NCBI GenBank assembly: GCA_021789915.1
Contig: JAJYIV010000002.1
Coordinates: forward strand, 613 to 64,612
Length of the DNA: 64,000 bases
DNA from: a bacterium
GTDB lineage: Bacteria; Patescibacteriota; Patescibacteriia; UBA9934; GWF2-40-263
Direction: 5' to 3'
The first letter of the stretch is position 1. Each line of letters starts with the position of its first letter. The position numbers and the translations under genes are program-made. Below are positions 1-64,000 of the stretch, piece after piece. The notes beneath the pieces are model-generated. The model ran no database searches. It had not been told where the DNA came from and was given only the letters and a program-made list of their open reading frames with translations.

Positions 1-1502
1 GCACGGACGCCGCGCGCACGCAGGTGAAGGATCCGGCGAACTGCCCGGCCGGCTCGGCGGCGCAGACGAAGTACGTCTGCACGAACGGTCAGACGGTCGA
101 CGACCCGTCCGCGTGCGAGCACGTCTGCCGCGGCGGGTACGCGCTCGACGAATCGACCGGCGCGTGCGTGAAAGTCTGCCCCGAAGGGCAGACGCTGGAT
201 TACGCTGGCGACTGCGAACCGCTGCCGCCGAACGACTGCCATGCGGACGCGGACTGCAGCGCCGGCGAGCGCTGCAACGTGAATGGCCACTGCGTCGTCC
301 CGTGCCATCGGGACGCGGATTGTCATGATCCGTCGCTCTGGTGCAACGCGCCGACGATCGTCGGCGACGACACGATGGGAAGCTGCCAGCCCGCCCCGTC
401 GGAAACGACGGGGACGGGGAAGCTCACCGTCACGACGGACGGAACGTCGCCGAAGTCGTCCATCGTGCTCGGCGGCAGCACGAGCGTTCCCGCCGCCGTG
501 TACGCTTTGGAAGCGACGAACAAGAACGCGACGATCCGCGGTCTGACGCTGTTCAACTGCGTCGGCATGCAGCCGGAACCGAAAGACGACTGCAGCGGCG
601 CAAACGAAAGCCACGAGGACGACGCGGCCGTCGAGGCCGTGTATCTGCACTACTTCGGAGCGGACGGGAATTCCGTAACCAAAACGGGGTTCCTGCAGTT
701 CGGCAAGGTGACGTTCGTCGGGCTCGACATGCCGGCGAACGTCGACGTGCACACGCTGCTGACGGTGACGGTGGACGCCGGCCTTGTTTCGTCCGTGAAC
801 GGCGTGCCGTCCGGCACGAAGTTCCAGCTGAACCTCGTCGCGACGGACTTCGATGCCGTCGCAACGGACGACGGGACGCCGATCCAGGCGACGTTCACGG
901 CCGCCGGCGACGCACAAGCGGTCGCCAGTCCGATGACGTTGCGCAAGACCAAGCCGACCGTGACGCTCGCCTCGGGTTCCCCGAGCGGCGCCGGAGTGCC
1001 CGGGTTCTCCGAGGTGCTTCGGTACAACGTGTCGGCGGCGTCGACCGGCTTCGTCGGCCTCGACATGATCACGTTCAAGCTCACGTCGACGGACATGGCT
1101 GGCAGCGGCTGGAACACGGACGCCCGGCTTGAGGGCAAGTTCCAGTTGTACGACATGGCGGATCCGTCGGCAGCAATCGGCGCGGCCGTGTGGCTGCACA
1201 ACTCCACCGGTGCGGTGGCGGGGCCGAATGACGTTGTGACCTACGTCACGTTCGTCTTCGACCCGGGCGAAGTACAAGTCTCCGCCGGCATGACGTCCAC
1301 CTTCTCGCTGAAGATGGACACGACGGGCGCGAACTCCGCGGACAACGACATCATCCGCATCGACATCCCGGCCCAGAGCGAGCTCGACCAGCTCGCGACG
1401 CCGCAGACATCGATCCGGTGGGAAGATGATATCGAAGCGCAAAGCCTCGACGGGACGCTCGTCAACAATCTTCCGATGACGGGCGGAACGATCGTCTTCT
1501 AA
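1..1502 (+). CDS. Secreted/surface protein, 5'-partial: Cys-rich N-terminal region followed by beta-rich repeats
   Basis: The frame is open from base 3, upstream of the GTG at 24. There are many CxxxC-type Cys pairs followed by T/S/V-rich repeats. GC3 is high. No homolog recognised. Confidence 0.55.
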   Translation, partial: TDAARTQVKDPANCPAGSAAQTKYVCTNGQTVDDPSACEHVCRGGYALDESTGACVKVCPEGQTLDYAGDCEPLPPNDCHADADCSAGERCNVNGHCVVPCHRDADCHDPSLWCNAPTIVGDDTMGSCQPAPSETTGTGKLTVTTDGTSPKSSIVLGGSTSVPAAVYALEATNKNATIRGLTLFNCVGMQPEPKDDCSGANESHEDDAAVEAVYLHYFGADGNSVTKTGFLQFGKVTFVGLDMPANVDVHTLLTVTVDAGLVSSVNGVPSGTKFQLNLVATDFDAVATDDGTPIQATFTAAGDAQAVASPMTLRKTKPTVTLASGSPSGAGVPGFSEVLRYNVSAASTGFVGLDMITFKLTSTDMAGSGWNTDARLEGKFQLYDMADPSAAIGAAVWLHNSTGAVAGPNDVVTYVTFVFDPGEVQVSAGMTSTFSLKMDTTGANSADNDIIRIDIPAQSELDQLATPQTSIRWEDDIEAQSLDGTLVNNLPMTGGTIVF

Positions 1503-1510
1503 GGCGCGAA

Positions 1511-1565
1511 CCCCTCCGCCTGCCAAAAAGGAAGCCAGCAGGCATCCTCCCCTTGGCAGGGGAGG
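1511..1565. repeat. GC-rich double-hairpin repeat, intergenic copy
   Basis: CCCCTCCGCCTGCC..GCCAGCAGGC..CCTCCCCTTGGCAGGGGAGG. It is the reverse complement of the copies at 15583 and 63803. Confidence 0.85.
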
Positions 1566-1586
1566 TTCTGCCGCGGACACTCTCTG

Positions 1587-9797: not shown

Positions 9798-10885
9798 CGT
9801 CCGGCCAGGGCGCGCACGCGTTCCGCCAGGCGTTCCGCGGCGCCTCCCGGGAACAGCGCCCCGATCCGTTCGGACAGGCGGCGCTGTTTTTCTTTGTCTC
9901 CGACAAGCGCCGCGACCTGCGCGACGAGCGCGGTCCCGCCGCGCGCCTGCTCCACGGCCACCGCCGCCCCGCGGCGCAGGACGGCGCGCGCGTTTTCCTC
10001 CTGCGGCGAGCGCGGCAGCGGCACGAGCACGCACGGCTTGCGCAGCGCCGAGAGCTCCGCAAGCGTGCCCATGCCGGCGCGCGCGACCACGACGTCGGCA
10101 GCCGCCAAGGCGTCGGCCAAATCGCGGCCAAGGAGCAGCTCCACGGCGGCGTAGCCGGGCCCGGCCGCGCGCAGGCCCTCGGTGACTTTCCCGCGGCCCG
10201 TCACGTGGATGACGTCGGCGACGGCGCGCATGCGCTCCATCCCCGCCTCAAACGCCCGGTTGATCCACGCCGATCCGCCCCCGCCGCCCAGCACGAGCGC
10301 CACCGGACGCGCGCCGGAAAAGCCGTAGCGCGCGCGGGCGGCCGACGCATCGCCGCGCAGGATCGACGGCCGCACGGGCTGGCCGACGACGAGCGTTTTG
10401 TCCTTCGGGAACGCCGCGGCCGTCTCGGGCCACGCGACGGTGATGAGCGACGCGGCGCCCGCACACAGGCGGTTGGACAAGACCGGCCGCACGTCGGGCT
10501 GATGGATCCACGACGGAATCTTGAACCGGCGAGCCAGCAGGACGAACGGCACGCCGGTGAAGCCGCCGGCCGAGGCGACGACGTCCGGCCGTTCGCGGCG
10601 GAGCAGGCGCCACGCGGCGAACAGCGCCGCGGCGGCTTTGAACGGGAACACCAGCCACTCGGCGGACGCGTAGCGCGTCAGGCGCGCCACGGGCACGGCG
10701 TGGAACGGAATGCCCGCCTGCTCCACCAGCGCGCGCTCCGGCCCGCGCGCCGTTCCCGCCCACGCGAACGACGCGTCCGGATCGGACGCGCCATGCCTGT
10801 CGGCAGGCAGGCGCAACGCTTCGGCGACGGCGAGCAGCGGCGTGACGGGACCAAGCGTTCCTCCGCCGGCAAAGAGGATTTTCAT
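9794..10885 (-). CDS. murG: UDP-N-acetylglucosamine--N-acetylmuramyl-(pentapeptide) pyrophosphoryl-undecaprenol GlcNAc transferase
   Basis: Start MKILFAGGGTLGPV, the typical MurG N-terminus. dcw context. Confidence 0.9.
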   Translation of the reverse strand: MKILFAGGGTLGPVTPLLAVAEALRLPADRHGASDPDASFAWAGTARGPERALVEQAGIPFHAVPVARLTRYASAEWLVFPFKAAAALFAAWRLLRRERPDVVASAGGFTGVPFVLLARRFKIPSWIHQPDVRPVLSNRLCAGAASLITVAWPETAAAFPKDKTLVVGQPVRPSILRGDASAARARYGFSGARPVALVLGGGGGSAWINRAFEAGMERMRAVADVIHVTGRGKVTEGLRAAGPGYAAVELLLGRDLADALAAADVVVARAGMGTLAELSALRKPCVLVPLPRSPQEENARAVLRRGAAVAVEQARGGTALVAQVAALVGDKEKQRRLSERIGALFPGGAAERLAERVRALAGR

Positions 10886-10892
10886 AGCGGTA

Positions 10893-10917
10893 AGCCAACA
10901 GCCGTCAGCCGTCAGGG
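10893..10917. repeat. Heptamer array (GCCGTCA units)
   Basis: AGCCAACAGCCGTCAGCCGTCAGGG. Inverted relative to the array at 11322-11353. Confidence 0.85.
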
Positions 10918-11280
10918 ATTGGCCTTCGGCCTCGAAGAACACAAGACGTTCAACATACGCAAAACTTCATGCAAGAGACAGTCGGCTCGATCGTAATCGA
11001 GTGAACCGGTTCTCGGAAGCCGCCGAGCGATCGAGAGTTGCGTCTGAAGCTCGGCCGCCGAACCGTAAGCGATCGAGAGGAACCTGGCAAACTCATTGTC
11101 GTAGCCGCGCATCTTCCCTTCCGCGATATTCGATGGAATGGAAACCGCTGCTCGTCTCATTTGGCTTGTTAAACCGAATCGTTCGTCCGTCGGGAAAGAG
11201 TCGGTCAAGAGGTAAATCTCAAGGGAAAGATCCATGGCTTTTTGCCAGACAATGAGATCTTCGTATGGTCCTGTCGACAT
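10912..11280 (-). CDS. Four-helix-bundle protein (23S rRNA intervening-sequence protein family)
   Basis: YEDLIVWQKAMDL...IPSNIAEG...FLSIAYGSAAELQTQL is the family signature. The start could also be at 11292. Confidence 0.8.
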   Translation of the reverse strand: MSTGPYEDLIVWQKAMDLSLEIYLLTDSFPTDERFGLTSQMRRAAVSIPSNIAEGKMRGYDNEFARFLSIAYGSAAELQTQLSIARRLPRTGSLDYDRADCLLHEVLRMLNVLCSSRPKANP

Positions 11281-14482: not shown

Positions 14483-14761
14483 TTACTTCGTTTCGACGCG
14501 GGCGAAGGTGCGCGTCTGCAGCTTGCCGGCGAAATTCGGCATGCGCTTCTTGGCGAACTTCACGATGCCGTCGACGGCCGCATACAGCGTGTCGTCGCCG
14601 CCTTGGCGCATGTTGGCGCCGGGATGGATCTTGGTGCCGCGCTGGCGCACCACGATCTGGCCGGCCTTGGTGACCTGTCCGTCGGCAATCTTCACGCCCA
14701 GGCGCTGACCATGGGAATCGCGGCCAAGGGTTGTGGAACCTGTCGCTTTTTTGTGAGCCAT
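14483..14761 (-). CDS. rpmA: 50S ribosomal protein L27
   Basis: [24 protein letters not shown]... is the canonical L27 sequence. Confidence 0.96.
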
Positions 14762-14769
14762 AAAGGAAA

Positions 14770-14800
14770 GCTTTTAGCCATTAGCCTTTAGCCATGAGCC
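14770..14800. repeat. Heptamer array (TTAGCCA units)
   Basis: GCTTTTAGCCATTAGCCTTTAGCCATGAGCC. TAG at offsets 6, 13 and 20 on plus; TAA at 11, 18 and 25 on minus. Confidence 0.9.
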
Positions 14801-14885: not shown

Positions 14886-16211
14886 TTAGAGCCTGTTCAT
14901 CCGGCAGACGAAGCTCTTCAAATACGCCGCCTCGGGGAAATACACGGACAACGGATGATCCGGGCTCTGACGCACGACCTCGAGCACCTGCAGGTCGACG
15001 CCCGCCTGCACCGACGCGCGGCGCAGCAGGAAGACCAAGTCCTCCTCCGGCAGGAAATGCGAACAGCTGGACGTGATGAAGATGCCGCCGTCCTTCACGA
15101 GCTTGAGCGCGGCGCGGTTCAGGAAATGATAGGCCTTCTTCCCTTCCTCGGCGTCCTTCATCGACTTGATGAGCGCCGGCGGATCCATAACGACGACGTC
15201 GAAAGCGCCGGCAACCCCCTCAGACTCCCCCTTGGCAAGGGGGAGATGGTGCGGGTTGGCGAGCCACTGGAAGACGTCCGCTTTCTCCGTCGCGCAGACC
15301 TCGTCGGACAAGCCGGCCGCCGCCGCCTGCGCGCGCAGCGATGCCAGCGCTTCCTCGGATCCGTCGACGTTCAGGACGGATTTCGCCCCGCCGGCGAAAG
15401 CGGCGAAGGACGTGGCACCGGTGTATGAAAAGAGATTCAGAACCGTCTTCCCTTGCGCGAGCGCGGCGACCCGGTCGCGCAGGTCCTTCTGGTCGAGGAA
15501 GAATCCCGTCTTTTGTCCGTGAAGAGGATCGGCGACGCAACGCCGGCCGTGCTCGAGAAATTCGACTTGACCCAATGCGCGTCCTCCCCTTTCCAAGGGG
15601 AGGCTGCCTGCTGGCCGCTTTTCAGCAGGCGGAGGTGTTGCCGGCGTGTGAATTCTGACGACCGCCTCCAGGTTCTCCTCGCGCCGGCTCGGCATGTCGC
15701 TGCGCTCGACGATCGCGCGCGGCTTGAACGTCTCTTCCAGCGCGGCGACGACGTCGTCACGCAGCGCGTCGAGACCGGCGGTTGCGATCTGGCATACGAG
15801 CACGTCGCCGTAGCGGTCGACGACCAAGCCCGGAATCCCGTCGGACTCGCCGAACACGCAGCGGTAGCCGGTCGTGAACTTCTCCCCCTTTTCAAGGGGG
15901 AGACTCTGCTCCAGAGGGGGTCGAGGGCCGTATCCCATCAAAACCCGTTTCTGGTGCGCATCCGCGATCTTGGCCGCCAGCCAGGCGCGGTCGATGACGG
16001 CCTCTTTGAACGCAAACACGCGCACGGCGATGGACGAGCTGGCGGAGTACGTCCCCGTGCCGATGATGCGCCCCTGGCGGTCCGCGACGTGCACGAGGGC
16101 GCCATGCTCGGGTTTCTTCTGACCGTCGGCCAGCGCGCGCGAAAAAATCCACGGATGGCGGAAGCCGACATTGGCCTCCTTCCCTTCTTTGAGCTTCAGG
16201 ACGGGGTACAT
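14886..16211 (-). CDS. Class I SAM-dependent rRNA methyltransferase (RlmI/RlmK-like, PUA plus MTase)
   Basis: Start MYPVLKLKEGKE..FRHPWIF. VLNLFSYTG and VVMDPP motifs. The long 706-aa ORF prefix is R-rich shadow sequence. Confidence 0.75.
   Translation of the reverse strand: MYPVLKLKEGKEANVGFRHPWIFSRALADGQKKPEHGALVHVADRQGRIIGTGTYSASSSIAVRVFAFKEAVIDRAWLAAKIADAHQKRVLMGYGPRPPLEQSLPLEKGEKFTTGYRCVFGESDGIPGLVVDRYGDVLVCQIATAGLDALRDDVVAALEETFKPRAIVERSDMPSRREENLEAVVRIHTPATPPPAEKRPAGSLPLERGGRALGQVEFLEHGRRCVADPLHGQKTGFFLDQKDLRDRVAALAQGKTVLNLFSYTGATSFAAFAGGAKSVLNVDGSEEALASLRAQAAAAGLSDEVCATEKADVFQWLANPHHLPLAKGESEGVAGAFDVVVMDPPALIKSMKDAEEGKKAYHFLNRAALKLVKDGGIFITSSCSHFLPEEDLVFLLRRASVQAGVDLQVLEVVRQSPDHPLSVYFPEAAYLKSFVCRMNRL
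15225..15245. repeat. GC-rich hairpin repeat, in-frame within a CDS
   Basis: CTCCCCCTTGGCAAGGGGGAG, translated as PLAKGE. Confidence 0.85.
15583..15636. repeat. GC-rich double-hairpin repeat, in-frame within a CDS
   Basis: CCTCCCCTTTCCAAGGGGAGGCTGCCTGCTGGCCGCTTTTCAGCAGGCGGAGG. About 50/55 identical to 63803-63857. Confidence 0.9.
15881..15925. repeat. GC-rich hairpin repeat, in-frame within a CDS
   Basis: TCTCCCCCTTTTCAAGGGGGAGA.., translated as SLPLEKGEKF. Confidence 0.85.
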
Positions 16212-19051: not shown

Positions 19052-19477
19052 TTACGACGCCAGCCCGAGCTTTGCCTCGACGACCTGCAAACGCCCCTCG
19101 AAGCGATCCATCCGCAAGGTCGGCGCGACCAGCTCCTGCTCGATCGTCAGCTGCAGCCGCGCCACCTGGTCGCTCACGGCAAGGACTTCCTGACGAACGT
19201 CTTGAAGATCCTCCTTTGTCGCGAAACGGTCGAAATCGTCTTTCGTGGCAAAGTTCTGCAGATCGTCTTTCGTGGCAAAGTTCTGCAGATCGTCTTTCGT
19301 GGCAAAGTTCTGCAGATCGTCTTTCGTGGCAAAACGGTCGAAATCGGCCTTCATTGCCACATTCTCCTTTACGAAACCGATGAATTCGTGCATTTCCGAC
19401 GTTAAACCTTCGACCTTCCGTTCAAGGCCATCGAACTTCTGCGCCAGCTGATTTGTCGTCAGGTGTTCCTCACTCAT
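19052..19477 (-). CDS. Coiled-coil protein with tandem FATKDDLQN repeats (DUF1640-like pattern)
   Basis: 141 aa. Five 9-aa repeats flanked by heptad-like helices. Confidence 0.7.
   Translation of the reverse strand: MSEEHLTTNQLAQKFDGLERKVEGLTSEMHEFIGFVKENVAMKADFDRFATKDDLQNFATKDDLQNFATKDDLQNFATKDDFDRFATKEDLQDVRQEVLAVSDQVARLQLTIEQELVAPTLRMDRFEGRLQVVEAKLGLAS
19208..19345. repeat. 27-bp tandem repeat (3 perfect and 2 degenerate units) inside a CDS
   Basis: ATCGTCTTTCGTGGCAAAGTTCTGCAG x3 at 19235-19315, with diverged flanking units. Confidence 0.9.
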
Positions 19478-21864: not shown

Positions 21865-21872
21865 AGGGGGAA

Positions 21873-21914
21873 GCGGTTAGCCATTAGCTGTTAGCCGTTA
21901 GCTTCTAACTGTTG
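21873..21914. repeat. Heptamer array (TTAGCYN units)
   Basis: GCGGTTAGCCATTAGCTGTTAGCCGTTAGCTTCTAACTGTTG, directly upstream of the pyrG start. Confidence 0.9.
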
Positions 21915-22484: not shown

Positions 22485-22652
22485 GACATCTGCGTGTTCG
22501 CCGGTCTTCCCGCCTTCTGTACATCCGAGAAGGACGGCATGGTCGTCACCCTCCCCTACCCGTTAGCGAACGGTCGGGAGAATTCTGTCAGCTTCCGACT
22601 CCGCGGGAAGACAACGGTCCTCGCCGCGCCGCACATCGTCTACGTCCACTGA
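22485..22652 (+). pseudogene. 3' fragment of a paralog of the 24824..25207 gene
   Basis: DICVFAGLPAFCTSEKDG..APHIVYVH aligns with KACVFGGLPAICETSKRG..APHIIYVP. No N-terminal part or start is present. Confidence 0.45.
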
Positions 22653-22706
22653 CGCACGCGCGTCCGCGCGGTTCGTGAGCCCGACGCTCACGGCCGCCGC
22701 GGGCGC
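22626..22706 (+). repeat. 81-bp direct repeat, copy A
   Basis: 78/81 identical to 25181-25261. Covers the last 8 codons, the stop and hairpins. Confidence 0.9.
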
Positions 22707-24420: not shown

Positions 24421-24452
24421 CAAACCAAACCCCGCCTGGCCTGCAGGCGGGG
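24421..24452 (-). terminator. Terminator of the tRNA-like RNA
   Basis: On the minus strand: CCCCGCCTGCAGGCCAGGCGGGG followed by TTTGGTTTG. Confidence 0.65.
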
Positions 24453-25207: not shown

Positions 25208-25261
25208 CGCACGCGCGTCCGCGCGGTTCGTGAGCCCAACGCTCACGGCCGCCGCGGGCGC
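25181..25261 (+). repeat. 81-bp direct repeat, copy B
   Basis: 78/81 identical to 22626-22706. Confidence 0.9.
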
Positions 25262-26861: not shown

Positions 26862-26865
26862 AGAT

Positions 26866-48580: not shown

Positions 48581-48588
48581 AAAGGATT

Positions 48589-49181: not shown

Positions 49182-49198
49182 GGAGGTTCATCGACGAG

Positions 49199-51349: not shown

Positions 51350-53398
51350 TCACCGCACGCGCGTCCGGAACAGCTCGTCCGGCCACTTGGCGAAATACTT
51401 GAGGAAGCTGATCGAGTGCGCGCGGGCCATCCGGTTGACGAGCAGCGTGCGCAGCAGGCTGCCCTGGCGCACCGATCCCTTGCCGTAGGCATGCTGCAGC
51501 GCCGCATCGGCCACATAGTACACCGGCCGGTGCATCGCCCACGAGCGGCGGCACAGATCCACGTCCTCGAAGTACATCCAGAAGCGCTCGTCGAAGCCGC
51601 CCAGCGCGCGCCAGTGCTCCATCGGCAGGAACAGCGCGGAGCCCTGCGCCCAATCCACCATGCGCGTTTCGCCTGGCGGCGTGTCGCGCATCAGGAAACG
51701 ATGGAGGTAGCGGCGGCCGAAGGCCGTGCCGCCGAGCGTCGTGCGCTGGACGAGCGGCAGCGGCCACGACGGGAAGCGGCGCACGGTTTCCTGCGCCTGT
51801 CCGTCGGGATAGACGATCTTGGGCGCGGCGATGCCGGCGCGCGGATGCGCGCGCATGAACGCGACGAGCTTGGCGAAGAGCCGATCGTCGACGAGTTCCG
51901 TATCCGGGTTCAGCACGAAGAGGAACTCGGCGTCGAGCTCGGCGGCGCCGCGGTTCACGGAGCTGCCGTAGCCGGCGTCCCAGTTGCGCTGGACGACCAC
52001 GCCGTCGGGAATCGCGTCCCACAGCACGGCCGCGGCATCGTACGCCGTCGACGCGTTGTCCACGACGACGACGCCGACGCGCAGGCCGGACGCCTTGCGC
52101 GCGCGATCGAGCGAACGCAGACACGCGGCGCTCAAATCGTCGTGCGAGACGATGACGACGGCGATGTCGAGGTAAGTAGCTGGCGGCTGGGGGCTGGCGG
52201 CTGGGGGAGAAAACGGGAGCGGGGCCTGCGCGCGCGCCGCGTCCGCGGGCGACGGCACGGCGCGAACCGCGCCGAACCGCGCGGCGTACGCGCGCCGCTT
52301 CGTGATCAGCTCATGCCGATGCTCCCACGTTTCCCGCCACGCCTCGGTGCACACGCGCGGCCGCATGACGAGCCAATATGCCGCCTTCGCCGCCTCATAC
52401 GGAAGCACGGCCCATGCGCGCGCCGGCGCCGAACGGAACTCCCCCTGGCTCCCTCTTGAAAAGAGGGGGAAGTGCATCGCCAGCGTCCAAAGATGGTTGC
52501 GGTACGAGTGGAACACCGGCCGCCAGGTTTGCGCGGTGCGGCCGATTCCCCCCCTGCCTGCCTCGCATACCCCCCGCCTGCCAAAATGCGGCCAGCAGGC
52601 AGCCCCCCTTGGCAGGGGGGCAATCCTGGCCGTGCCGAAGCTGCGGCGATGGTACGCGACGGCGTCGGACACGACGCCGGAGGCGAAGCCCGCGCGGCGC
52701 AATCTCCACGCAAGCTCGACGTCTTCCTTGTACGAGACGAACGACGGGTCAAACAAATTCCCGTCCAACGACGCCGCCTCTACCGCCGCACGGCGATACA
52801 TCGGCAGGCAGCCCGACACCCCGAACGCCTCGTGCACGCCCTCATGCAGCTGCGCCGTCGAAACACGCTCCCCTGCTCCGATGTCGCGCACGGCGCCCGT
52901 TGCCGACATCGCCAAGCCGAAACTGTCGATCACGTCCGTGCGCCCGCCGGACCCCTCTGCCCAGCTGAGCTGGGCCGTCCCCCCTTGGCAGGGGGGGACG
53001 ACACACGCCGCCCGATCGAAATCCCATCGATACACGCGCCCGGCGACGGACCCGAGCCGCGCGTCCGCGTCCAGCGCGGCGACGAGCCGCTCGAGATACG
53101 CCGGTTCCAGGATCGCATCGTCGTTGTGCAGCATCACGTACGCCGCCTGATGCTTGGAGAACAGCAGGTTATGCGCGCCGGCAAAGTCGACGTTGCGCGG
53201 CCCGACGTCCACGTACACGGCGCGGTCGCCGAGTTCCCGCGCGAACGCGCGCACCGCCTCGGCCTGCACGGGATCCGACGCATTGTCCGTCACGTACAGC
53301 GTCCAATCGCGGAACGTCTGCGCGCGCAGGGACGCCAAAATATGCGGCAGGTACCGCGCGCCGTCGTAGCAGGAAAGTTGGATGGCGAGTTTGGACAT
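51350..53398 (-). CDS. Fused double GT2 glycosyltransferase (682 aa)
   Basis: Two GT2 modules (LSCYDGARYL..HNDDA and VIVSHDD..LNPDT..YFEDVDLC). Carries two repeat inserts. Confidence 0.8.
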   Translation of the reverse strand: MSKLAIQLSCYDGARYLPHILASLRAQTFRDWTLYVTDNASDPVQAEAVRAFARELGDRAVYVDVGPRNVDFAGAHNLLFSKHQAAYVMLHNDDAILEPAYLERLVAALDADARLGSVAGRVYRWDFDRAACVVPPCQGGTAQLSWAEGSGGRTDVIDSFGLAMSATGAVRDIGAGERVSTAQLHEGVHEAFGVSGCLPMYRRAAVEAASLDGNLFDPSFVSYKEDVELAWRLRRAGFASGVVSDAVAYHRRSFGTARIAPLPRGAACWPHFGRRGVCEAGRGGIGRTAQTWRPVFHSYRNHLWTLAMHFPLFSRGSQGEFRSAPARAWAVLPYEAAKAAYWLVMRPRVCTEAWRETWEHRHELITKRRAYAARFGAVRAVPSPADAARAQAPLPFSPPAASPQPPATYLDIAVVIVSHDDLSAACLRSLDRARKASGLRVGVVVVDNASTAYDAAAVLWDAIPDGVVVQRNWDAGYGSSVNRGAAELDAEFLFVLNPDTELVDDRLFAKLVAFMRAHPRAGIAAPKIVYPDGQAQETVRRFPSWPLPLVQRTTLGGTAFGRRYLHRFLMRDTPPGETRMVDWAQGSALFLPMEHWRALGGFDERFWMYFEDVDLCRRSWAMHRPVYYVADAALQHAYGKGSVRQGSLLRTLLVNRMARAHSISFLKYFAKWPDELFRTRVR
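52548..52621. repeat. GC-rich double-hairpin repeat (G6 subfamily), in-frame within a CDS
   Basis: ..CCCCCCGCCTGCCAAAATGCGGCCAGCAGGCAGCCCCCCTTGGCAGGGGGG. Reverse complement of the 60812 copy. Confidence 0.9.
52959..52999. repeat. GC-rich hairpins, in-frame within a CDS
   Basis: GCCCAGCTGAGCTGGGC plus GTCCCCCCTTGGCAGGGGGGGAC, translated as PPCQGGTAQLSWA. Confidence 0.85.
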
Positions 53399-53411
53399 AG
53401 ATCGCTGGCAA

Positions 53412-53530
53412 CCCCTCCGCCTGCCGATGGTCGGCCAGCAGGCAGCCTCCCCTTGGGGGGGCGCGTTTTTCCGCGTCCCCTCTTTTCCAAGAGCCTGTCC
53501 TGAGCGAGCGGAGCGAGTCGAAGGAAGGGG
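53412..53530. repeat. Composite repeat filling an intergenic gap
   Basis: Double-hairpin copy (53412-53461) plus a CCTGTCCTGAGCGAGCGGAGCGAGTCGAAGGAAGGGG module. Confidence 0.85.
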
Positions 53531-58419: not shown

Positions 58420-58624
58420 CAGGGACGGGCTCTTCGTGAAGAGCCCCCCACCACGAGGCAAAGACGATCGCGGCGAGCAAAAACCAATGCACGGAAAAAT
58501 AATCCGAGACGAAGCCGGCGCGGATCGCGTCGCAGGCCCAGAAGACCGCGTATGAAACGATCGACGCGTAAAACCCGGTGCGGGCGACGGCTTGCTGGGC
58601 AGGGCTATCAAGGTGCAAGGTCAT
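58409..58624 (-). CDS. Small membrane protein (71 aa)
   Basis: ATGA overlap with the upstream stop. Two hydrophobic segments. Confidence 0.5.
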   Translation of the reverse strand: MTLHLDSPAQQAVARTGFYASIVSYAVFWACDAIRAGFVSDYFSVHWFLLAAIVFASWWGALHEEPVPVSS

Positions 58625-59460
58625 ACGTGCAGGAGCGTTTTCAGCGTGTCGGCAAGATTCGGCCGCGTCATCGTCACGTCCATGCGGTGGATGACGAAGG
58701 AAATTGGGGGCAGGGGGGGATTCGCCACGCCGGGCACCGACAGGACGATCTTCCATGCGCCGTTCTGCCGCAGGGCCGTCTTCGGGTTCACGGTGAACGT
58801 CGCAACCGTCCAGCCGTCCACCGTCCGCGGCGTCGCGTAGCGCGCGATCACGAAATCGATTCCCGCCGCGTCCAGATCCAAGCTCGGCAGCAGGCGCGAC
58901 GCGCCGGCGGGCAGCAAGCCGTCGTAGCGGTACTGCGCCATGCGGCTCCCCGCCGGCGGATGCGCGAGGAAATCCGCGATCGACGCGTACGTCGGCGTGC
59001 GCTGCAGCAGCACGAGGCCGTCCGCATCCAGCCGATGCCACGGCGAATCGTCGATCAGGGTGTTTTCCAGCGGTTGCAAATCATACTGCTCGTCCGGTCC
59101 TGGCTTCGTCAATGCGCCCGCCTCGACGATCGGCACGCCGGCATCCTTGAACCACACGTTGACCGTGACCGCGTCGAAGCGGCGCAGCGGATGCACGAAC
59201 GTGTATACCGGATCGCCGACGACGGCCTGCGCCGCAAGATTTCCCCCCTGCCAAGGGGGGAACGCCCGGCCCGGCTGGGCAAGGGGGGTCGGTGCCTGAA
59301 CGCGCTGGTCCGGCCGCAGCGGATCGACGAAGGCGCTGCGTTCTCCCGGCTCCCAGGAGACGCGGAACGTTCCCGTCGGCACGAGGAATTGCCAGCCCAA
59401 CCAGCCGAAGATCGCGATCGGCACGGCGATGATCAGGATTTGGAACGGACGTGGGGACAT
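58621..59460 (-). CDS. Hypothetical membrane-anchored protein (279 aa)
   Basis: N-terminal TM segment ILIIAVPIAIFGWLGW. Carries a repeat insert, FPPWQGGN. Confidence 0.6.
   Translation of the reverse strand: MSPRPFQILIIAVPIAIFGWLGWQFLVPTGTFRVSWEPGERSAFVDPLRPDQRVQAPTPLAQPGRAFPPWQGGNLAAQAVVGDPVYTFVHPLRRFDAVTVNVWFKDAGVPIVEAGALTKPGPDEQYDLQPLENTLIDDSPWHRLDADGLVLLQRTPTYASIADFLAHPPAGSRMAQYRYDGLLPAGASRLLPSLDLDAAGIDFVIARYATPRTVDGWTVATFTVNPKTALRQNGAWKIVLSVPGVANPPLPPISFVIHRMDVTMTRPNLADTLKTLLHV
59241..59262. repeat. GC-rich hairpin repeat, in-frame within a CDS
   Basis: TTCCCCCCTGCCAAGGGGGGAA. Confidence 0.85.
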
Positions 59461-59506: not shown

Positions 59507-59530
59507 GCCTGACGGCTGACGGCTAATGGC
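59507..59530. repeat. Heptamer array (GGCTGAC/GGCTAAT), inverted partner
   Basis: GCCTGACGGCTGACGGCTAATGGC. Contains the stop codon of the 59523..61409 ORF. Confidence 0.9.
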
Positions 59531-61409
59531 TTGCAATGACATACAGCGTCTCGATCCCGAACGTCTGCACCGGCACGAACGTAAGGCCGTCGGCCTTCAG
59601 TTTGTCCGTGTTGAGATAGTTCAGATCTTGCGCCGGCAGCGTGATGCCGAAGTAGTACGTCGGCGCGTGCGCGACGAGCGCGGGCAGCAGCGCATAGGTC
59701 CGCGGATCGCGCAGCGGATAGCGCACGGCGCGATCCGGAAAGAAGATTTTGTCGTCGCGGTCAACGACGATGACGGCGTCCGCCGGCGTCAGGCGCATCA
59801 CGGCGTCATGCACGGCGCGCTCTTGCGCCAACACCTGCGCCTCAGCGAACAAGCCGTCCTCCGGGGTCAGGAACGCCGTGCGGAACCCGAGCGCCGCCCA
59901 GGCGACCCAGCCGACGACGAGCACGACGGAGCCGAGGCGCTTCGCACGCGCGGCAAGCTCGTCGAGCGCCACGGCCGCGAGCGGCACCCAGGCGACGAAG
60001 ATCGGCAGCCAGTACCGCACGTGCGAATTGCCGACGGTGATCTGCGTCGGATCCGGATTGTCCGTGAACGTCCAGCTGCCGTACATCAGCACGAGCCAGA
60101 CCGTCACGACGAGGGCGACGAGGAGATAGGGCCAAAAGCAGCTGGCAGCTGGCAGCTGGCAGCTGGGGGAAGAACCGCGACGGCGCTTCGACAAGACGCG
60201 GACGGCCAACAAGATGATGCCGAGCGCCGCCAGGACGAACTCCCACCAGAACATCCTCAAGCCATAGGCGACGAACTGCCGCCAGGCCAGGCGCGGATGG
60301 ATGCCGAAGGGAAAGACGAAGGAGAGCGCTCGCTCCATGGCGCGCCGCCACGCGGGCATGGAGGCTCCGGGGGCGAGCGCTGCCGCAGACGTGGATGATT
60401 CCCCCCCTGCCAAGCCTGTCCTGAGCGAAGTCGAAGGAGGGGGGCTGCCGGCTGACTCCATGACGGCCGGCGGGGGGGTATGCGCCACGGCTATGGCCGG
60501 CACGGAGACGAGATCGCCGCCGGACGCGTCCGCCGCCGCCTGGTAGCCCGTCGTCCACGGCGAACCGTACAGACGCTGGTTCAAAAACGGCATGGGCGAG
60601 AGGACGACGAGGAACCCAAGCACGCCGGCGGCGACGAAGCGGCGATCCAGCTGCCGCCATTGCCAGGCGAAGGCGGCCGCCGCGGGAACGACCAACCACA
60701 CGGCTTCCGACGCGCGGATGAAGAGCGCGAGCCCCAGCAGCGCGCCCGCGGCGAAACCGTCGAGCGCATGGTGCCAGCGCCCCGCGGATGCACGGGAAGC
60801 GCCCGCGAGGATTGCCCCCCTGCCAAGGGGGGCTGCCTGCTGGCCGTCATGCGGCAGGCGGGGGGTATGCGAGGTGGACGTGGTGGAAGCGTTTTGAAAC
60901 GGCCGCGCGAGGAAAAACCAGAAGGCGAAGCCCACGCATGCGAGGAACGGCACATTGGGCATGAGCGAGCGGGCCGTGTAGAACCACCACGCCGGCTGCA
61001 GCGCGAGCAGCGCGCCCGCGATCCATCCCGCGCGCCGGCCGAACAGGCGCCCGAAGACGGCCGCCCACGCGAGCACGCCGAGCGCGGAGAGCAGGATCGG
61101 CACGTACGGGATCGCCCGGGCGCCGAACGCCTTCGCCGCGACGCCGAGCGCGAGCGGCAAGCCGAGGAAGCTCGCGGGAACGAGCGCGCCGCGCGTCGCA
61201 AGCACGCTGCGCGGATGCAGCGCGTCGCCGAGCGCGGCGGCGAGCGGCTCGGGCGCGGACAGCGTCGACGTCGCCGCGTACGCCCCGGCGAAGAACGACA
61301 CGGCCGTTTCGTCCGGCGACACGAAGATGGCTCCCGACGCGCGCAGCGCGAGGGAACCGAGGACGAGCAGCAGGCAGGAAGAGGCGAGCAGCCAGCGGAC
61401 GGGGTTCAT
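59523..61409 (-). CDS. Polytopic membrane protein, probable ArnT/PMT-like glycosyltransferase
   Basis: 628 aa with more than 10 TM segments and a soluble C-terminal domain. Sits in a glycosylation cluster. Two repeat inserts. Confidence 0.5.
   Translation of the reverse strand: MNPVRWLLASSCLLLVLGSLALRASGAIFVSPDETAVSFFAGAYAATSTLSAPEPLAAALGDALHPRSVLATRGALVPASFLGLPLALGVAAKAFGARAIPYVPILLSALGVLAWAAVFGRLFGRRAGWIAGALLALQPAWWFYTARSLMPNVPFLACVGFAFWFFLARPFQNASTTSTSHTPRLPHDGQQAAPLGRGAILAGASRASAGRWHHALDGFAAGALLGLALFIRASEAVWLVVPAAAAFAWQWRQLDRRFVAAGVLGFLVVLSPMPFLNQRLYGSPWTTGYQAAADASGGDLVSVPAIAVAHTPPPAVMESAGSPPPSTSLRTGLAGGESSTSAAALAPGASMPAWRRAMERALSFVFPFGIHPRLAWRQFVAYGLRMFWWEFVLAALGIILLAVRVLSKRRRGSSPSCQLPAASCFWPYLLVALVVTVWLVLMYGSWTFTDNPDPTQITVGNSHVRYWLPIFVAWVPLAAVALDELAARAKRLGSVVLVVGWVAWAALGFRTAFLTPEDGLFAEAQVLAQERAVHDAVMRLTPADAVIVVDRDDKIFFPDRAVRYPLRDPRTYALLPALVAHAPTYYFGITLPAQDLNYLNTDKLKADGLTFVPVQTFGIETLYVIASH
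60399..60485. repeat. Composite GC-rich repeat, in-frame within a CDS
   Basis: TTCCCCCCCTGCCAAG plus CCTGTCCTGAGCGAAGTCGAAGGAGGGGGG plus CTGCCGGC..GCCGGCGGGGGGGTATGCG. Confidence 0.85.
60812..60874. repeat. GC-rich double-hairpin repeat (G6 subfamily), in-frame within a CDS
   Basis: TTGCCCCCCTGCCAAGGGGGGCTGCCTGCTGGCCGTCATGCGGCAGGCGGGGGGTATGCGAGG. Confidence 0.9.
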
Positions 61410-62040: not shown

Positions 62041-64000
62041 ATGCCTCGCGGACGGTTTGTCGTTAAATCTACCACCATTTGGACGATTTTTCCATTCGTT
62101 TTTGCCGTGAACGCGCTTTGGGTGAAAAACGCGGCCCTGGGCCTCGTACTGCTTGCGGCGTTTTTGGCGCTGCTCGGCTCGGCCGTCGGGCGCGCGGCGG
62201 CGCCCGAGGAGGGACGCGCGGTGCGCTGGTGGCTGGGCGTCTGGCAGCTGCTGTCCGCCCTCATCATTGTCGCCGCAGCGATGTATTATGCCATGCCGTT
62301 TTCGCCGGCGGCGGCCGATGTGCTCGTCATCCTCGCCCTCGCCGCTGCCTGGACGATCCGCGGGCGCGCGAAGACGCCGCCGCCTCGCCGGGCGGACGCT
62401 CCGGCGCAGCGCGGATGGCCTTTGGCCGCCGGGCTCGCCGCGCTCGCGGGTTTCGCCTCCACGCTGTTCCTGCTGCGCGCCTCCGCGACCGTCCGCGCGG
62501 TCGCGTCGCCGTGGGACGTCGTGTCCCCGTGGACATTCGTCGCGTTCGGCGCGGGTGTCTTGGCGCTGTCCGCTCTCTGGTTCCAGGGCCGCGGACGCGC
62601 GTCCGTTCCTCCGCCGGGATCGCCCCCCTGCCAAGGGGGGCTGCCTGCTGGCCTTGCCCCCCTGCCAAGGCCTGTCCTGAGCGAAGTCGAAGGAGGGGCT
62701 GCCCGCTGTCCGCACGGCGCCGGGCGGGGGGTTCCGTCGGCAGGCGTGGGGTTCATCGTCCCGCTCACGATTCTGGCGCTGTTCGTCTTTCTCAGCGTGA
62801 ACCTCGCCGTCTTCCCGCTGGGCGCCGGCTTCGACGCCTTCATCCATCGCGCGACGGAAGCGCACATCGCCGCGACCGGCAGCATCACGCCCAAGCCGCT
62901 TTACTACGCCGGCCAGTACGCGCTCGTCGTCCTCCTGCACCACGCCTTCGCGCTGCCCGTGGACGCCGTCGATCTCTGGCTGCTGCCGCTGCTCGCCGCG
63001 TTCCTGCTCCCGTCGGCGTGGACGGATGCGGCCGACCGTCTTCTTCCCGAGCGCCGCTGGGCGCCGTTCACGCTCGCGCTCCTGTTCCTGCTGCCGCTCG
63101 GCGCGTTCGCCACGACGACGCCGCAAGGTCTGGCGGATCTTTGGATTCTGCTGCTCGTGCTGGCAAGCGTGCCGCTGCTGGCGGCGTCTCCGCTTGACGG
63201 CCCGGCGCGGCGGCGGCGCCTGTGGCTGCTCGCGCTCTCCGCGCTGGCGACCGCGGCCATTCATCCGCTCGCCGGACTGCCCGCGCTTGCCTTCGTCGCG
63301 TATCTTGCCGCCGCGCGCACGCGATGGTTGCGCCGCGCGATCATCGCCGTCGGCGCGCTGCTGCTGCCCGTCAGCTTCCTCGTGGAGAACCGCGGCCTGG
63401 GCGGACGCGGGCTGGATCTTGCCGGGCTCTGGACGAAGCTCGCCGCGCTGTTCCCCGCCCCGCCCGCGCTGGGCGCGCCGTACCATCCGGCGCTGGATTT
63501 CGCCGCGGCGCTCGGCTGGGCGGCGGGATGGATCGTCCTGCTGCTGGCCATCCTCGGCTGGCGGCGCGCGCCGAACCGCCTGCGCTGGGCGGCGGCGGCG
63601 ATGGCGGGCCTGTTGCTGGCGGATTACGTGTTACTCGGCACCATCGTGGATTTTTCGTACCTGATCGACTATGAACGCGCGAGCTATGCCGCGCGCCTGC
63701 TGCCGCTCGCGCTGTTCTTTCTCGCGCCGCTCGCCATGGTCGGGTTGGGACGGATCCGGCAGCGGCTGGATGGATTCCCCCGCGCACGGGAGTCTGCCTC
63801 GTCCTCCCCTTTCCAAGGGGAGGCTGCCTGCTGGCCGCTTTCTGGCAGGCGGAGGGGTTGCCGGCGCAGCGAACAGGAAGGAAGGAAAGCGCCGCGCGCG
63901 GTGCGCTGGTTCGCCGTCGCGCTCGCCGCGGGAGCCGTGCTCGGCGCGTGGTATGCCGCCTATCCGCGCGACGACGCCTATCTCAAAGGCCACGGCTACA
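62041..64000 (+). CDS. Large polytopic membrane protein, 3'-partial (absent from the ORF track)
   Basis: I read all 653 codons from the ATG at 62041 to the window end and found no stop. There is an in-frame TGA at 62023. Many L/A/W-rich TM segments. Confidence 0.7.
   Translation, partial: MPRGRFVVKSTTIWTIFPFVFAVNALWVKNAALGLVLLAAFLALLGSAVGRAAAPEEGRAVRWWLGVWQLLSALIIVAAAMYYAMPFSPAAADVLVILALAAAWTIRGRAKTPPPRRADAPAQRGWPLAAGLAALAGFASTLFLLRASATVRAVASPWDVVSPWTFVAFGAGVLALSALWFQGRGRASVPPPGSPPCQGGLPAGLAPLPRPVLSEVEGGAARCPHGAGRGVPSAGVGFIVPLTILALFVFLSVNLAVFPLGAGFDAFIHRATEAHIAATGSITPKPLYYAGQYALVVLLHHAFALPVDAVDLWLLPLLAAFLLPSAWTDAADRLLPERRWAPFTLALLFLLPLGAFATTTPQGLADLWILLLVLASVPLLAASPLDGPARRRRLWLLALSALATAAIHPLAGLPALAFVAYLAAARTRWLRRAIIAVGALLLPVSFLVENRGLGGRGLDLAGLWTKLAALFPAPPALGAPYHPALDFAAALGWAAGWIVLLLAILGWRRAPNRLRWAAAAMAGLLLADYVLLGTIVDFSYLIDYERASYAARLLPLALFFLAPLAMVGLGRIRQRLDGFPRARESASSSPFQGEAACWPLSGRRRGCRRSEQEGRKAPRAVRWFAVALAAGAVLGAWYAAYPRDDAYLKGHGY
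62621..62740. repeat. Composite GC-rich repeat, in-frame within a CDS
   Basis: CCCCCCTGCCAAGGGGGGCTGCCTGCTGGCC plus CCCCCCTGCCAAGG plus CCTGTCCTGAGCGAAGTCGAAGGAGGGG.., translated as PPCQGGLPAGLAPLPRPVLSEVEGG. Confidence 0.9.
63803..63857. repeat. GC-rich double-hairpin repeat, in-frame within a CDS
   Basis: CCTCCCCTTTCCAAGGGGAGGCTGCCTGCTGGCCGCTTTCTGGCAGGCGGAGGGG, translated as SSPFQGEAACWPLSGRRRG. Confidence 0.9.

What the first reader, a model, noticed from the sequence alone, without database searches (positions are those of the whole stretch)
15225..15925. Three copies of a stop-free GC-rich hairpin repeat sit in-frame inside one conserved rRNA methyltransferase gene (RPE-like behaviour)
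The RlmI-like ORF (14886..16211, minus) contains three repeat copies:
- 15225-15245: CTCCCCCTTGGCAAGGGGGAG
- 15583-15636: CCTCCCCTTTCCAAGGGGAGG-CTGCCTGCTGGCCGCTTTTCAGCAGGCGGAGG
- 15881-15925: TCTCCCCCTTTTCAAGGGGGAGA...

These belong to a family I found at 12 loci in this window. The other copies start at 1511, 52548, 52959, 53412, 59241, 60399, 60812, 62621 and 63803. The core is a perfect 7-8 bp C-run/G-run hairpin, often followed by a second hairpin GCCTGCTG..CAGCAGGC and a G-rich tail.

In this gene the copies are read through as PLAKGESEG, PAGSLPLERGGRALG and SLPLEKGEKF. Hand translation of the 15583 copy gives no stop in 5 of 6 frames. The ORF is 441 aa, compared with about 396 aa for E. 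coli RlmI, so the excess roughly equals the inserts.

Frame-preserving palindromic insertions are classically described for Rickettsia palindromic elements (RPEs). I do not know of an equivalent in a high-GC genome.
Basis: partly seen in the sequence, partly recalled or inferred. Interest (0 to 1): 0.78.

Follow-up and report, generated by a model that had tools for sequence, protein, structure and literature searches.

The report
Selfish hairpin repeats inside protein genes
A family of short GC-rich hairpin repeats has inserted itself, without breaking the reading frame, into surface loops of an rRNA methyltransferase and several other genes of a small-genome (Patescibacteria-like) bacterium; this is a new example of a phenomenon already known from Rickettsia and from REP elements, not a new kind of biology.

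Summary
The 441-aa RlmI-like gene (14886..16211, minus) carries three members of a real repeat family. The copy at 15580-15646 is 94% identical to one in an unrelated gene at 63800-63866.

- **Insertions, not ancestral loops.** Against 118 homologues, the only query-specific segments are aa 100-112, 194-213 and 319-330 (39, 60 and 36 nt). They coincide with the repeats and with the only low-confidence loops of an otherwise confident AlphaFold model.
- **Not specific to RlmI.** Twelve of 14 copies in the window lie inside five genes. QueA on a second contig of the same or a closely related organism carries four.
- **Signs of mobility.** Both orientations and several frames occur. One element sits nested in the loop of another.
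- **Narrow distribution.** The two-hairpin form was found only in the window and that second contig.

Best reading: a REP/RPE-like selfish palindromic element. It is tolerated in coding DNA because its C-run/G-run palindrome encodes Pro/Gly-rich, stop-free loops. Only frame-preserving insertions at permissive loops survive.

Stop-freeness is mostly a GC-composition effect. Intragenic REPs in high-GC bacteria are already published (PMC3733652). Verdict: a new member of a known kind, of moderate interest.

The parts
14886..16211 (-). RlmI-like 23S rRNA m5C methyltransferase gene (441 aa) that hosts three repeat copies
   Evidence: Pfam PUA_3 plus Methyltrans_SAM. E. coli RlmI 3c0k, E = 5.8e-63. 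All 54 invariant family columns are kept, including DPP and SSCS. The core has GC3 of 0.83.
15193..15245 (-). Copy 1: hairpin 1 (CTCCCCCTTGCCAAGGGGGAG) + TCTGA + tail GGGGGTTGCCGGCG. Subfamily A element lacking hairpin 2. Read as LPLAKGESEGVAGA.
   Evidence: Sequence and codons. The query-only segment aa 319-330 (window 15222-15257) is absent from 118 homologues. The pLDDT dips to 67.
15580..15646 (+). Copy 2: full-length subfamily A element (hairpin 1 + hairpin 2 + G-rich tail). Read antisense as TPATPPPAEKRPAGSLPLERGG.
   Evidence: 94% identical to 63800-63866. nhmmer E = 2e-18. DNA fold z = -3.5. The 20-aa query-only segment aa 194-213 is absent from homologues. pLDDT is 53-65. The insert has GC3 of 0.55 and GC2 of 0.70, unlike the host gene.
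15881..15930 (+). Copy 3: hairpin 1 (10-bp stem) + short hairpin 2 (CTCTGCTCCAGAG) + G-run. Read antisense as PLEQSLPLEKGEKF.
   Evidence: Folds. The 13-aa query-only segment aa 100-112 is absent from homologues. The pLDDT dips to 70.
1505..1568 (-). Full-length subfamily A copy. Intergenic, 3 nt after the stop codon of ORF 3..1502 and before tRNA-Gln.
   Evidence: E = 1.6e-15.
52451..52467 (.). Mini hairpin CCCTCTTGAAAAGAGGG inside the GT2 gene (FSRGSQGEF insert)
   Evidence: Hairpin. The 9-aa segment is absent from GT2 homologues.
52558..52630 (-). Full-length subfamily B copy inside GT2 gene 51350..53398 (-). Read as ARIAPLPRGAACWPHFGRRGVCEA.
   Evidence: The ~26-aa segment is absent from 10 homologues, including the 64%-identical P0122.
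52950..53005 (-). Variant copy (hairpin 1 + GCCCAGC..GCTGGGC hairpin) inside the GT2 gene. Read as CVVPPCQGGTAQLSW.
   Evidence: Fold z = -3.9. The 16-aa segment is absent from homologues.
53403..53466 (-). Full-length subfamily A copy. Intergenic, 5 nt upstream of the GT2 start codon.
   Evidence: E = 4.5e-16. The start codon at 53398 is fixed by the alignment to P0122.
59236..59295 (+). Variant copy inside ORF 58621..59460 (-). Read as QPGRAFPPWQGG.
   Evidence: The ORF has GC3 of 0.84.
60399..60480 (+). Copy whose hairpin-1 loop carries a 24-nt extra module (CCTGTCCTGAGCGAAGTCGAAGGA). Inside membrane ORF 59523..61409 (-).
60806..60875 (+). Full-length subfamily B copy inside ORF 59523..61409 (-). 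Read as HTPRLPHDGQQAAPLGRGAIL.
   Evidence: E = 1.1e-15.
62611..62750 (+). Nested composite. An outer subfamily B element is interrupted in its hairpin-2 loop by an inner element of the 60399 type. Lies in frame in the plus-strand membrane ORF 62041..>63999.
   Evidence: Sequence. The ORF reads through. Segments of 37 and 15 aa are absent from the L042 orthologue.
63800..63866 (+). Full-length subfamily A copy inside the plus-strand ORF. Read as SSSPFQGEAACWPLSGRRRGCR.
   Evidence: E = 1.6e-18.

Best explanation
The three segments are copies of a lineage-specific, non-autonomous, REP/RPE-like palindromic repeat.

**Architecture.** The full form is about 65-70 nt:
- a C-run/G-run hairpin with an 8-10 bp stem;
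- a second hairpin, GCCTGCTGG..GGCAGGC;
- a G-rich tail.

Internally deleted forms of 40-55 nt also occur.

**Where it sits.** The family has spread through this gene-dense, 65% GC, Patescibacteria/Uhrbacteria-like genome. It is not excluded from coding DNA. In RlmI, one full copy and two shortened copies landed:
- in the PUA/central-domain linker;
- in the central-domain/methyltransferase linker;
- in the loop before strand beta-4 of the methyltransferase domain.

Each adds a multiple of three bases (39, 60 and 36 nt). Each is read through as a Pro/Gly-rich, probably disordered loop (LPLxKGE and similar). The catalytic fold stays intact.

**Why the copies persist.**
- A C-run/G-run palindrome gives Pro-x-x-Gly-type, stop-free peptides in every frame and in both orientations.
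- Selection removes every insertion that shifts the frame or hits a structured part of the protein. Only permissive loops of tolerant, non-essential genes accumulate copies.

No benefit to the host is needed.

**Shown.**
- The copies are homologous to one another across unrelated genes.
- They are absent from orthologues.
- The reading frame is preserved.
- They lie in loops.
- One element is nested inside another.
- The family has a narrow lineage distribution and clusters in a few genes.

**Inferred.**
- The mobilising enzyme and the insertion chemistry are unknown.
- I infer, without proof, that the inserts are translated.
- I infer, without proof, that they are near-neutral.
For: **Family identity**
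- The 67-nt copies in unrelated genes are 94% identical.
- nhmmer finds eight full copies with E-values from 1e-13 to 1e-18, all in the window or in L044.

**Insertions relative to orthologues**
- RlmI against 118 homologues.
- RlmI against syntenic relatives.
- The GT2 gene against 10 homologues.
- The membrane ORF against its L042 orthologue.
- QueA against PDB entry 1vky, with gaps of about 19, 11 and 39 aa.

**Structure**
- The AlphaFold model has a mean pLDDT of 92.6. Only the three insert blocks fall to 53-83.
- TM-score is 0.91 to E. coli RlmI.
- All invariant family residues are kept.

**Foreign composition**
- Insert 2 has GC3 of 0.55 and GC2 of 0.70. The gene core has 0.83 and 0.44.

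**Mobility hallmarks**
- Both orientations and at least three reading frames are used.
- One element lies in the hairpin-2 loop of another, and a 24-nt module lies in the hairpin-1 loop of two copies.
- An independent double-hairpin insertion sits at the same RlmI loop in a 59%-identical orthologue from another assembly.

**Distribution**
- 12 of 14 copies are intragenic, against a coding fraction of at least 81%.
- All downstream reading frames are intact.
- The 12 intragenic copies fall in only 5 genes. Simulation expects 10.5 genes, and none of 100,000 trials gave 5 or fewer.
- The better-conserved syntenic neighbours (CTP synthase, MraY, FtsW, L27, at 72-80% identity to orthologues) have no insert of 12 aa or more.

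**Precedent**
- Intragenic REPs and RPEs are documented in PMC3733652 and PMC10969869.
Against: - No transposase or RAYT gene was found among about 25 window ORFs scanned. Only 85 kb of the genome was available.
- I could define no consistent target-site duplication and no clean terminal inverted repeats. The mechanism of spread is therefore open.
- No empty-site allele from a close relative exists in the databases. The nearest orthologue is 67% identical. Recent mobility is thus not shown directly.
- There are no expression or proteome data.
- The clustering in a few genes could reflect local spread or gene conversion rather than tolerance.
Confidence: 0.8

Rival explanations
1. The hairpins are functional nucleic-acid signals that the host has recruited. 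Possible roles are mRNA stabilisers or ribosome pause sites that help domain-wise folding, or DNA sites for a structural protein, as proposed for BIMEs.
For: - The RNA hairpins are strong: -21.8 to -31.3 kcal/mol.
- Two of the three RlmI copies sit exactly at domain boundaries.
- The hairpin-2 stem keeps a conserved T.G position that pairs only in RNA.
Against: - Copies occur in both orientations relative to transcription and in several frames.
- They are absent from all orthologues, which work without them.
- They are found in unrelated genes and in intergenic DNA.
- Several fold z-scores are unremarkable, between -0.75 and -2.
Confidence: 0.08
2. The encoded Pro/Gly peptides (LPLxKGE and similar) are adaptive protein motifs acquired repeatedly, for example as interaction or flexibility modules.
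For: - Hairpin 1 is read in the same frame (L-P-L-x-K/R-G-E/G) in all three RlmI copies, in one QueA copy and in the P0042 orthologue.
- The same RlmI loop was hit independently.
Against: - At least eight other copies are read in other frames, giving PPCQGG, PPWQGG, APLPRGA or SPFQGE.
- The inserts are predicted to be disordered.
- The host proteins are functionally unrelated.
- Intergenic copies exist.
Confidence: 0.05
3. The segments are removed at the RNA level or bypassed during translation, like a tiny intron or a translational hop. In that case they never appear in the protein.
For: The structures are stable hairpins. There is no direct evidence of translation.
Against: - Every intragenic copy preserves the downstream frame and is stop-free in the frame used: 12 in the window and 4 in QueA. 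Under excision, neither property would be required. The chance of 16 out of 16 frame-preserving copies is (1/3)^16.
- There is no known splice or bypass signal, and no Rfam hit.
Confidence: 0.03
4. Assembly or amplification artefact, or ancient lineage-specific loops that happen to look palindromic.
For: The source is a metagenome-assembled contig. The RlmI protein has no close relatives in the databases.
Against: - The same family is present on a second contig (L044, ENA ERZ27233565).
- A related hairpin is present in a different assembly (L001, ERZ27254745).
- The protein is on record from both NCBI and ENA.
- 94% nucleotide identity between copies in unrelated genes cannot come from ancient independent loops.
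Confidence: 0.02

Closest known systems
Rickettsia palindromic elements (RPEs; Ogata et al. 2000, as summarised in PMC10969869)
   Same: - Palindromic repeats inserted in frame into unrelated conserved genes.
- Absent from orthologues.
- Located where the protein fold tolerates them.
- Several copies per gene are possible.
- No associated transposase is known.
   Different: - RPEs are about 100-150 bp, AT-rich and restricted to Rickettsia.
- These elements are 40-70 nt and GC-rich. They are built from two short hairpins plus a tail, and they sit in a Patescibacteria-like genome.
- I did not test sequence homology to RPEs.
CGTC- and GTAG-tagged REPs, including intragenic ones (Di Nocera et al. 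2013, PMC3733652)
   Same: - A short stem-loop with an 8-10 bp stem and a 3-5 nt loop.
- Some copies carry CGTC immediately 5' of the stem: 15580, 63800, 52976 and three in L044.
- Intragenic units that encode 10-30 aa, sometimes twice in one gene, are described, including in species I know to be high-GC.
- CGTC REPs have no dedicated transposase.
   Different: - The published CGTC families have A-T pairs at stem positions 1-2 and a CCA tail, and they mostly form head-to-head dimers. Here the stems are C-run/G-run, the CGTC tag is absent from most copies, and hairpin 1 is followed by a different second hairpin.
- Classical REPs are overwhelmingly extragenic. Here about 86% of copies are intragenic.
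In-frame bacterial MITEs (Coxiella QMITE1, Anabaena MITEs, intragenic ERIC and BOX; PMC10969869, PMC5896051)
   Same: Small non-autonomous repeats that can create translational fusions with host ORFs. The nested insertions seen here indicate mobility.
   Different: - MITEs are defined by terminal inverted repeats, target-site duplications and usually a parent IS. I could establish none of these here.
- These elements are shorter than most MITEs.

Membership tests
Rickettsia palindromic elements (RPE) | In-frame insertion into conserved protein genes, absent from orthologues | tested here: met
   RlmI against 118 homologues. GT2. QueA. Membrane ORF.
Rickettsia palindromic elements (RPE) | Insertion sites compatible with the protein fold (surface loops or linkers) | tested here: met
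   Only the three inserts have low pLDDT in a model with mean 92.6. TM-score 0.91 to 3c0k.
Rickettsia palindromic elements (RPE) | Length of about 100-150 bp and sequence membership in RPE-1 to RPE-10 of Rickettsia | tested here: not met
   The elements are 40-70 nt and GC-rich. Direct sequence comparison with RPE consensus sequences was not possible with these tools.
CGTC-tagged REP super-family (PMC3733652) | Stem-loop with an 8-9 bp stem and a 4-5 nt loop | tested here: met
   Hairpin 1 has stems of 8-10 bp and loops of 3-4 nt.
CGTC-tagged REP super-family (PMC3733652) | Unpaired CGTC (or TGTC/CCTC) tag at one end | tested here: inconclusive
   CGTC precedes the stem in 15580, 63800, 52976 and three L044 copies. 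It does not in copies 1 and 3 of RlmI or in subfamily B, which have GATTG or GATCG.
CGTC-tagged REP super-family (PMC3733652) | A-T pairs at stem positions 1-2, a CCA tail, and mainly head-to-head dimers | tested here: not met
   The stems begin with C/G runs. The element is followed by GCTGCC. The partner is a different hairpin, not an inverted copy.
Classical REP/BIME with RAYT (GTAG REPs) | GTAG tag and extragenic location | tested here: not met
   No GTAG or CTAC at the element ends. 12 of 14 copies are intragenic.
Classical REP/BIME with RAYT (GTAG REPs) | Associated RAYT (IS200/IS605-type) gene in the genome | not testable with these tools
   No transposase domain among about 25 window ORFs. 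The rest of the genome was not retrievable.
MITE | Terminal inverted repeats and target-site duplication | tested here: inconclusive
   There is only weak similarity between the C-rich 5' end and the complement of the G-rich 3' end. No consistent duplication flanks the aligned copies.
MITE | Evidence of transposition (nested or polymorphic insertions) | tested here: met
   An element is inserted in the hairpin-2 loop of another at 62611-62750. A 24-nt module lies in the hairpin-1 loop at 60399 and 62654. No population polymorphism data are available.

The most novel reading that the evidence does not exclude
The family is currently mobile in a roughly 1-Mb genome that has no canonical transposase. 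It inserts preferentially into single-stranded hairpin loops, as the two nested cases suggest. It would then act as a general generator of new Pro/Gly loops and linkers in Patescibacteria proteins. Such a small gene repertoire could expose the long-sought enzyme that moves the 'orphan', CGTC-type REPs and RPEs. One candidate class is a reverse transcriptase like the retron-type gene on L044.
Probability: 0.12. Interest if true: 0.7.

Novelty: new member of a known kind. Interest (0 to 1): 0.45.

Why it matters
- **Reach of the phenomenon.** It shows that RPE-like colonisation of coding sequence is not a peculiarity of AT-rich obligate intracellular bacteria. It also occurs in a high-GC, gene-dense candidate-phyla-radiation-type genome, with up to 3-4 copies per gene. 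In my full-text searches I found no report of this for that group.
- **Annotation and modelling.** These repeats inflate protein lengths, create spurious 'lineage-specific loops' and can mislead annotation, alignment and structure prediction in metagenome-assembled genomes.
- **Design principle.** A C-run/G-run palindrome encodes Pro...Gly and no stop codon in any frame.
- **Open question.** A small genome with nearly identical and nested copies is a good place to look for whatever mobilises transposase-less REPs.

Tried and rejected
- **Public genome and metagenome scans.** I scanned for the hairpin-1/hairpin-2 composite. Inspection showed only chance hits or conserved-gene hits.
- **Source contig look-up.** An exact look-up of the RlmI protein's contig failed.
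- **Concatenated peptide search.** I searched the protein database with a six-frame concatenate of the element's translations. Sensitivity was too low: only two hits, one of them the RlmI query protein itself. It did lead to QueA and contig L044.
- **Covariance model.** I did not build one. Hairpin 1 is out of register between subfamilies A and B in the alignment. I used nhmmer plus a palindrome scan instead.
- **Rfam.** No family reached threshold. The only hit was a sub-threshold, composition-driven match to Mycobacterium B11, at 27 bits against a gathering score of 70.
- **Intrinsic terminator reading.** Rejected: there is no T-run and the hairpins sit inside ORFs.
- **Stop-freeness as evidence of selection.** Rejected as weak.
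- **Membership in the published CGTC REP families.** Rejected on stem and tail features.
- **Target-site duplications and terminal inverted repeats.** The search was inconclusive.
- **My crude GC3 gene caller.** It mis-called the RlmI region. I corrected this by hand before running the simulation.
Full report
**1. Observation**

The sequences are at the stated coordinates. CCCCTT-N(1-6)-AAGGGG occurs four times in the window, against none in 100 dinucleotide-preserving shuffles. Three of the four lie in the ORF 14886..16211 (minus). A palindrome scan gives perfect stems of 9, 9 and 10 bp at 15225, 15583 and 15881.

The repeat family is real:
- 15580-15646 is 94% identical over 67 nt to 63800-63866.
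- It is 87% complementary to 53403-53456.
- A second subfamily links 52561-52630 and 60805-60874 at 91%.

**2. The host gene**

The ORF translates to 441 aa without a stop.
- It has PUA_3 and Methyltrans_SAM domains.
- It matches E. coli RlmI (3c0k) at E = 5.8e-63 over its full length.
- The nearest database homologues are 62-67% identical and 390-403 aa long. Named ones include Candidatus Uhrbacteria and Patescibacteria.
- Gene order (RlmI, L27, NifU, a 131-aa protein, MraY, FtsW, MurG) is shared with relatives' contigs.
- The window is 65% GC.

**3. The three segments are insertions**

In an alignment with 118 homologues, the only query-specific runs (occupancy below 1%) are:

| Protein residues | Peptide | Length | Window coordinates |
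|---|---|---|---|
| aa 100-112 | LEQSLPLEKGEKF | 39 nt | 15876-15914 |
| aa 194-213 | PPAEKRPAGSLPLERGGRAL | 60 nt | 15573-15632 |
| aa 319-330 | NPHHLPLAKGES | 36 nt | 15222-15257 |

These are exactly the three repeat copies. They sum to 45 aa, which is the gene's whole length excess. BLASTP against syntenic relatives gives the same three gaps.

All 54 invariant columns of the family are conserved, including the DPP and SSCS catalytic motifs. The gene core has a strong coding signature (GC1/2/3 = 0.68/0.44/0.83). Insert 2 has GC2 of 0.70 and GC3 of 0.55, so it does not look like host coding sequence.

**4. Structure**

An AlphaFold2 model built on the 119-sequence alignment has a mean pLDDT of 92.6 and a pTM of 0.90. 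The only low blocks are residues around 95-112, 190-215 and 320-335. These are coil and correspond to the inserts. The model superposes on E. coli RlmI with a TM-score of 0.91, normalised on the crystal structure.

Inserts 1 and 2 lie at the PUA/central-domain and central-domain/methyltransferase junctions. Insert 3 precedes the beta strand that carries the DPP motif.

**5. Anatomy of the element**

The full form is about 65-70 nt:
- hairpin 1, a C-run/G-run palindrome with an 8-10 bp stem and a 3-4 nt loop;
- hairpin 2, CTGCCTGCTGGCC-N6-8-GGCAGGCGG;
- a G-rich tail.

Two subfamilies differ in their ends. Subfamily A runs CGTCCTCCCC...GGGGTTGCCGGCG. Subfamily B runs GGATTGCCCCCC...GGGGGGTATGCGAGG.

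Copy 2 of RlmI is a full subfamily A element. Copy 1 is hairpin 1 plus the A tail in the opposite orientation (15193-15245), without hairpin 2. Copy 3 has a 5-bp mini hairpin 2.

Predicted DNA folds are better than shuffles for some copies (z = -3.5 and -3.9) but not all. As mRNA, the hairpins are worth -21.8 to -31.3 kcal/mol. No Rfam family matches.

**6. The behaviour is not specific to RlmI**

- **GT2 gene 51350..53398.** It holds copies at 52558-52630, 52950-53005 and 52451-52467. The corresponding 26-, 16- and 9-aa segments are absent from ten homologues, including one that is 64% identical.
- **ORFs with strong GC3.** ORF 58621..59460 holds one copy. ORF 59523..61409 holds two. The plus-strand ORF 62041..>63999 holds a nested pair and a full copy. 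The nested pair appears as insertions of 37 and 15 aa relative to the L042 orthologue.
- **Intergenic copies.** There are only two: 1505-1568, just after a stop codon, and 53403-53466, just before the GT2 start.
- **Second contig.** A peptide search led to a 415-aa QueA on another contig (L044, 66% GC, ENA ERZ27233565). This contig carries the same subfamilies. QueA has four in-frame elements, seen as gaps of about 19, 11 and 39 aa against T. maritima QueA.
- **Control genes.** Among real-frame orthologue pairs in the window, every window-specific insertion of 12 aa or more is a hairpin element. CTP synthase, MraY, FtsW and L27 (72-80% identical to orthologues) have none.

**7. Statistics**

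- Twelve of 14 copies are intragenic. My crude estimate of the coding fraction is at least 81%. Coding DNA is therefore not avoided, in contrast to classical REPs.
- The 12 intragenic copies fall in only 5 of about 52 genes. Random placement gives 10.5 genes on average and never 5 or fewer in 100,000 trials. Either a few tolerant genes accumulate copies, or spread is local.
- All 16 intragenic copies (window plus QueA) keep the downstream frame. This would not be required if they were excised from the RNA.
- The elements are stop-free in 5-6 of 6 frames. This is only slightly above background: 4.5 frames on average, and 54% of random 67-mers have at least 5.
- Frames and orientations vary (LPLxKGE, APLPRGA, PPCQGG, PPWQGG, SPFQGE). 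All give Pro followed by Gly, which follows directly from a C-run/G-run palindrome.

**8. Signs of mobility and distribution**

At 62611-62750, an element of the 60399 type sits in the hairpin-2 loop of a subfamily B element. At 60399 and 62654, a 24-nt module sits in the hairpin-1 loop.

A 59%-identical RlmI orthologue from another assembly (P0042, L001) has two related hairpins, CCTCCCCTTGGTAAGGGGAGG and GTCCCCCTGCCAAGGGGGAC. They lie at the same loop as insert 3, while closer orthologues lack any insert there. I infer that this is an independent hit at a permissive site.

Full two-hairpin copies occur only in the window and L044. They are absent from 20-kb loci of three relatives. They were also not recovered from 185,579 representative genomes or from the JGI metagenome contigs, where inspection showed only chance matches.

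I found no transposase among about 25 ORFs. No clear target duplication or terminal inverted repeat could be defined.

**9. Comparison with what is known**

In-frame insertion of small repeats is documented for RPEs at high frequency. It is also documented for ERIC, BOX, Coxiella QMITE1 and Anabaena MITEs (PMC10969869).

Di Nocera et al. (PMC3733652) report the following:
- GTAG- and CGTC-tagged REPs occur inside genes in several species, including ones I know to be high-GC (Opitutus terrae, Thauera, S. maltophilia).
- They encode 20-30 aa and are sometimes found twice per gene.
- Different REPs lie at about the same site of recB in two Xanthomonas species.
- RPE-4 and RPE-6 are CGTC REPs.
- CGTC REPs lack a dedicated transposase.

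The present elements share the stem-loop size and, in some copies, a CGTC tag. They lack the A-T stem positions, the CCA tail and the head-to-head dimer organisation of those families. I therefore do not file them as members. Their length and composition also exclude them from the RPE families. My full-text searches for an equivalent report in the Candidate Phyla Radiation found none.

**10. Verdict**

It is a new family, in a new host lineage, of an already described kind of selfish intragenic palindromic repeat. Its density per gene is unusually high and it has a neat sequence logic. The mechanism of spread, and proof that the inserts are translated, remain open.

Noticed in passing
window 10883-10923, 14759-14799, 21862-21902, 26856-26896, 55755-55795, 59455-59495: Arrays of three to four heptamers (GGCTAAN on the coding strand) lie 10-15 nt upstream of the ATG of six minus-strand genes, including L27, CTP synthase and MurG. 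No Shine-Dalgarno sequence is visible. This may be a promoter or a short-leader signal.
   Followed up: partly
window 60415-60438 and 62668-62692: A 24-nt module, CCTGTCCTGAGCGAAGTCGAAGGA, is inserted in the loop of hairpin 1. It is read as PSTSLRTG or PVLSEVEG. It looks like a separate small repeat that rides inside the element.
   Followed up: partly
L044 10001-11248 (QueA) and L044 5446-5497: QueA on a second contig of the same or a very close organism carries four in-frame hairpin elements. One belongs to a further family (CGTCCCCTCCTTTCCAAGGAGGGGTTAGGGGTTGTTGCC). That copy is 90% identical to an intergenic copy 5.5 kb away.
   Followed up: yes
L044 5964-6860 (minus): A 298-aa reverse transcriptase has sub-threshold similarity to retron St85/Ec67-type RTs. 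It is followed by 560 nt of non-coding DNA that contains the intergenic hairpin copy.
   Followed up: partly
window 19196-19365: Five to six tandem copies of a 27-nt unit lie inside ORF 19052..19477 (minus). This would give a 9-aa protein repeat.
   Followed up: no
window 22626-22706 and 25181-25261: An 81-nt direct repeat, 96% identical, lies 2.5 kb apart. Each copy contains a short hairpin, CGTGAGCCC(G/A)ACGCTCACG.
   Followed up: no
window 40523-40616: ARAGORN calls a 94-nt tRNA-Ala(GGC) here. Rfam's tRNA model does not report it at the gathering score. It may be an intron-containing tRNA or a false call.
   Followed up: no
window 24430-24452, 25526-25547; L044 15744-15765: A hairpin of the form CCCCGCCTG..CAGGCGGGG recurs. 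The window copy at 24430 sits 18 nt from tRNA-Ala (24470-24545, minus), and the L044 copy is followed by tRNA-like sequence. It is distinct from the intragenic family and may be a terminator.
   Followed up: no
Homologues P0009, P0004, P0091 (alignment A1): Other Uhrbacteria-like RlmI proteins have small lineage-specific inserts at the same permissive places. P0009 has PLTKGEIELARETQV at site 3, with no hairpin left in the DNA. P0004 has an insert at site 1. P0091 has GSGQGTF near the N-terminus. These may be decayed older insertions.
   Followed up: partly
window 47656-63999: The repeat-rich third of the window is a cell-envelope glycosylation cluster: RmlD, three GT2 genes, a nucleotidyl transferase and large multi-pass membrane proteins without Pfam hits.
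   Followed up: partly
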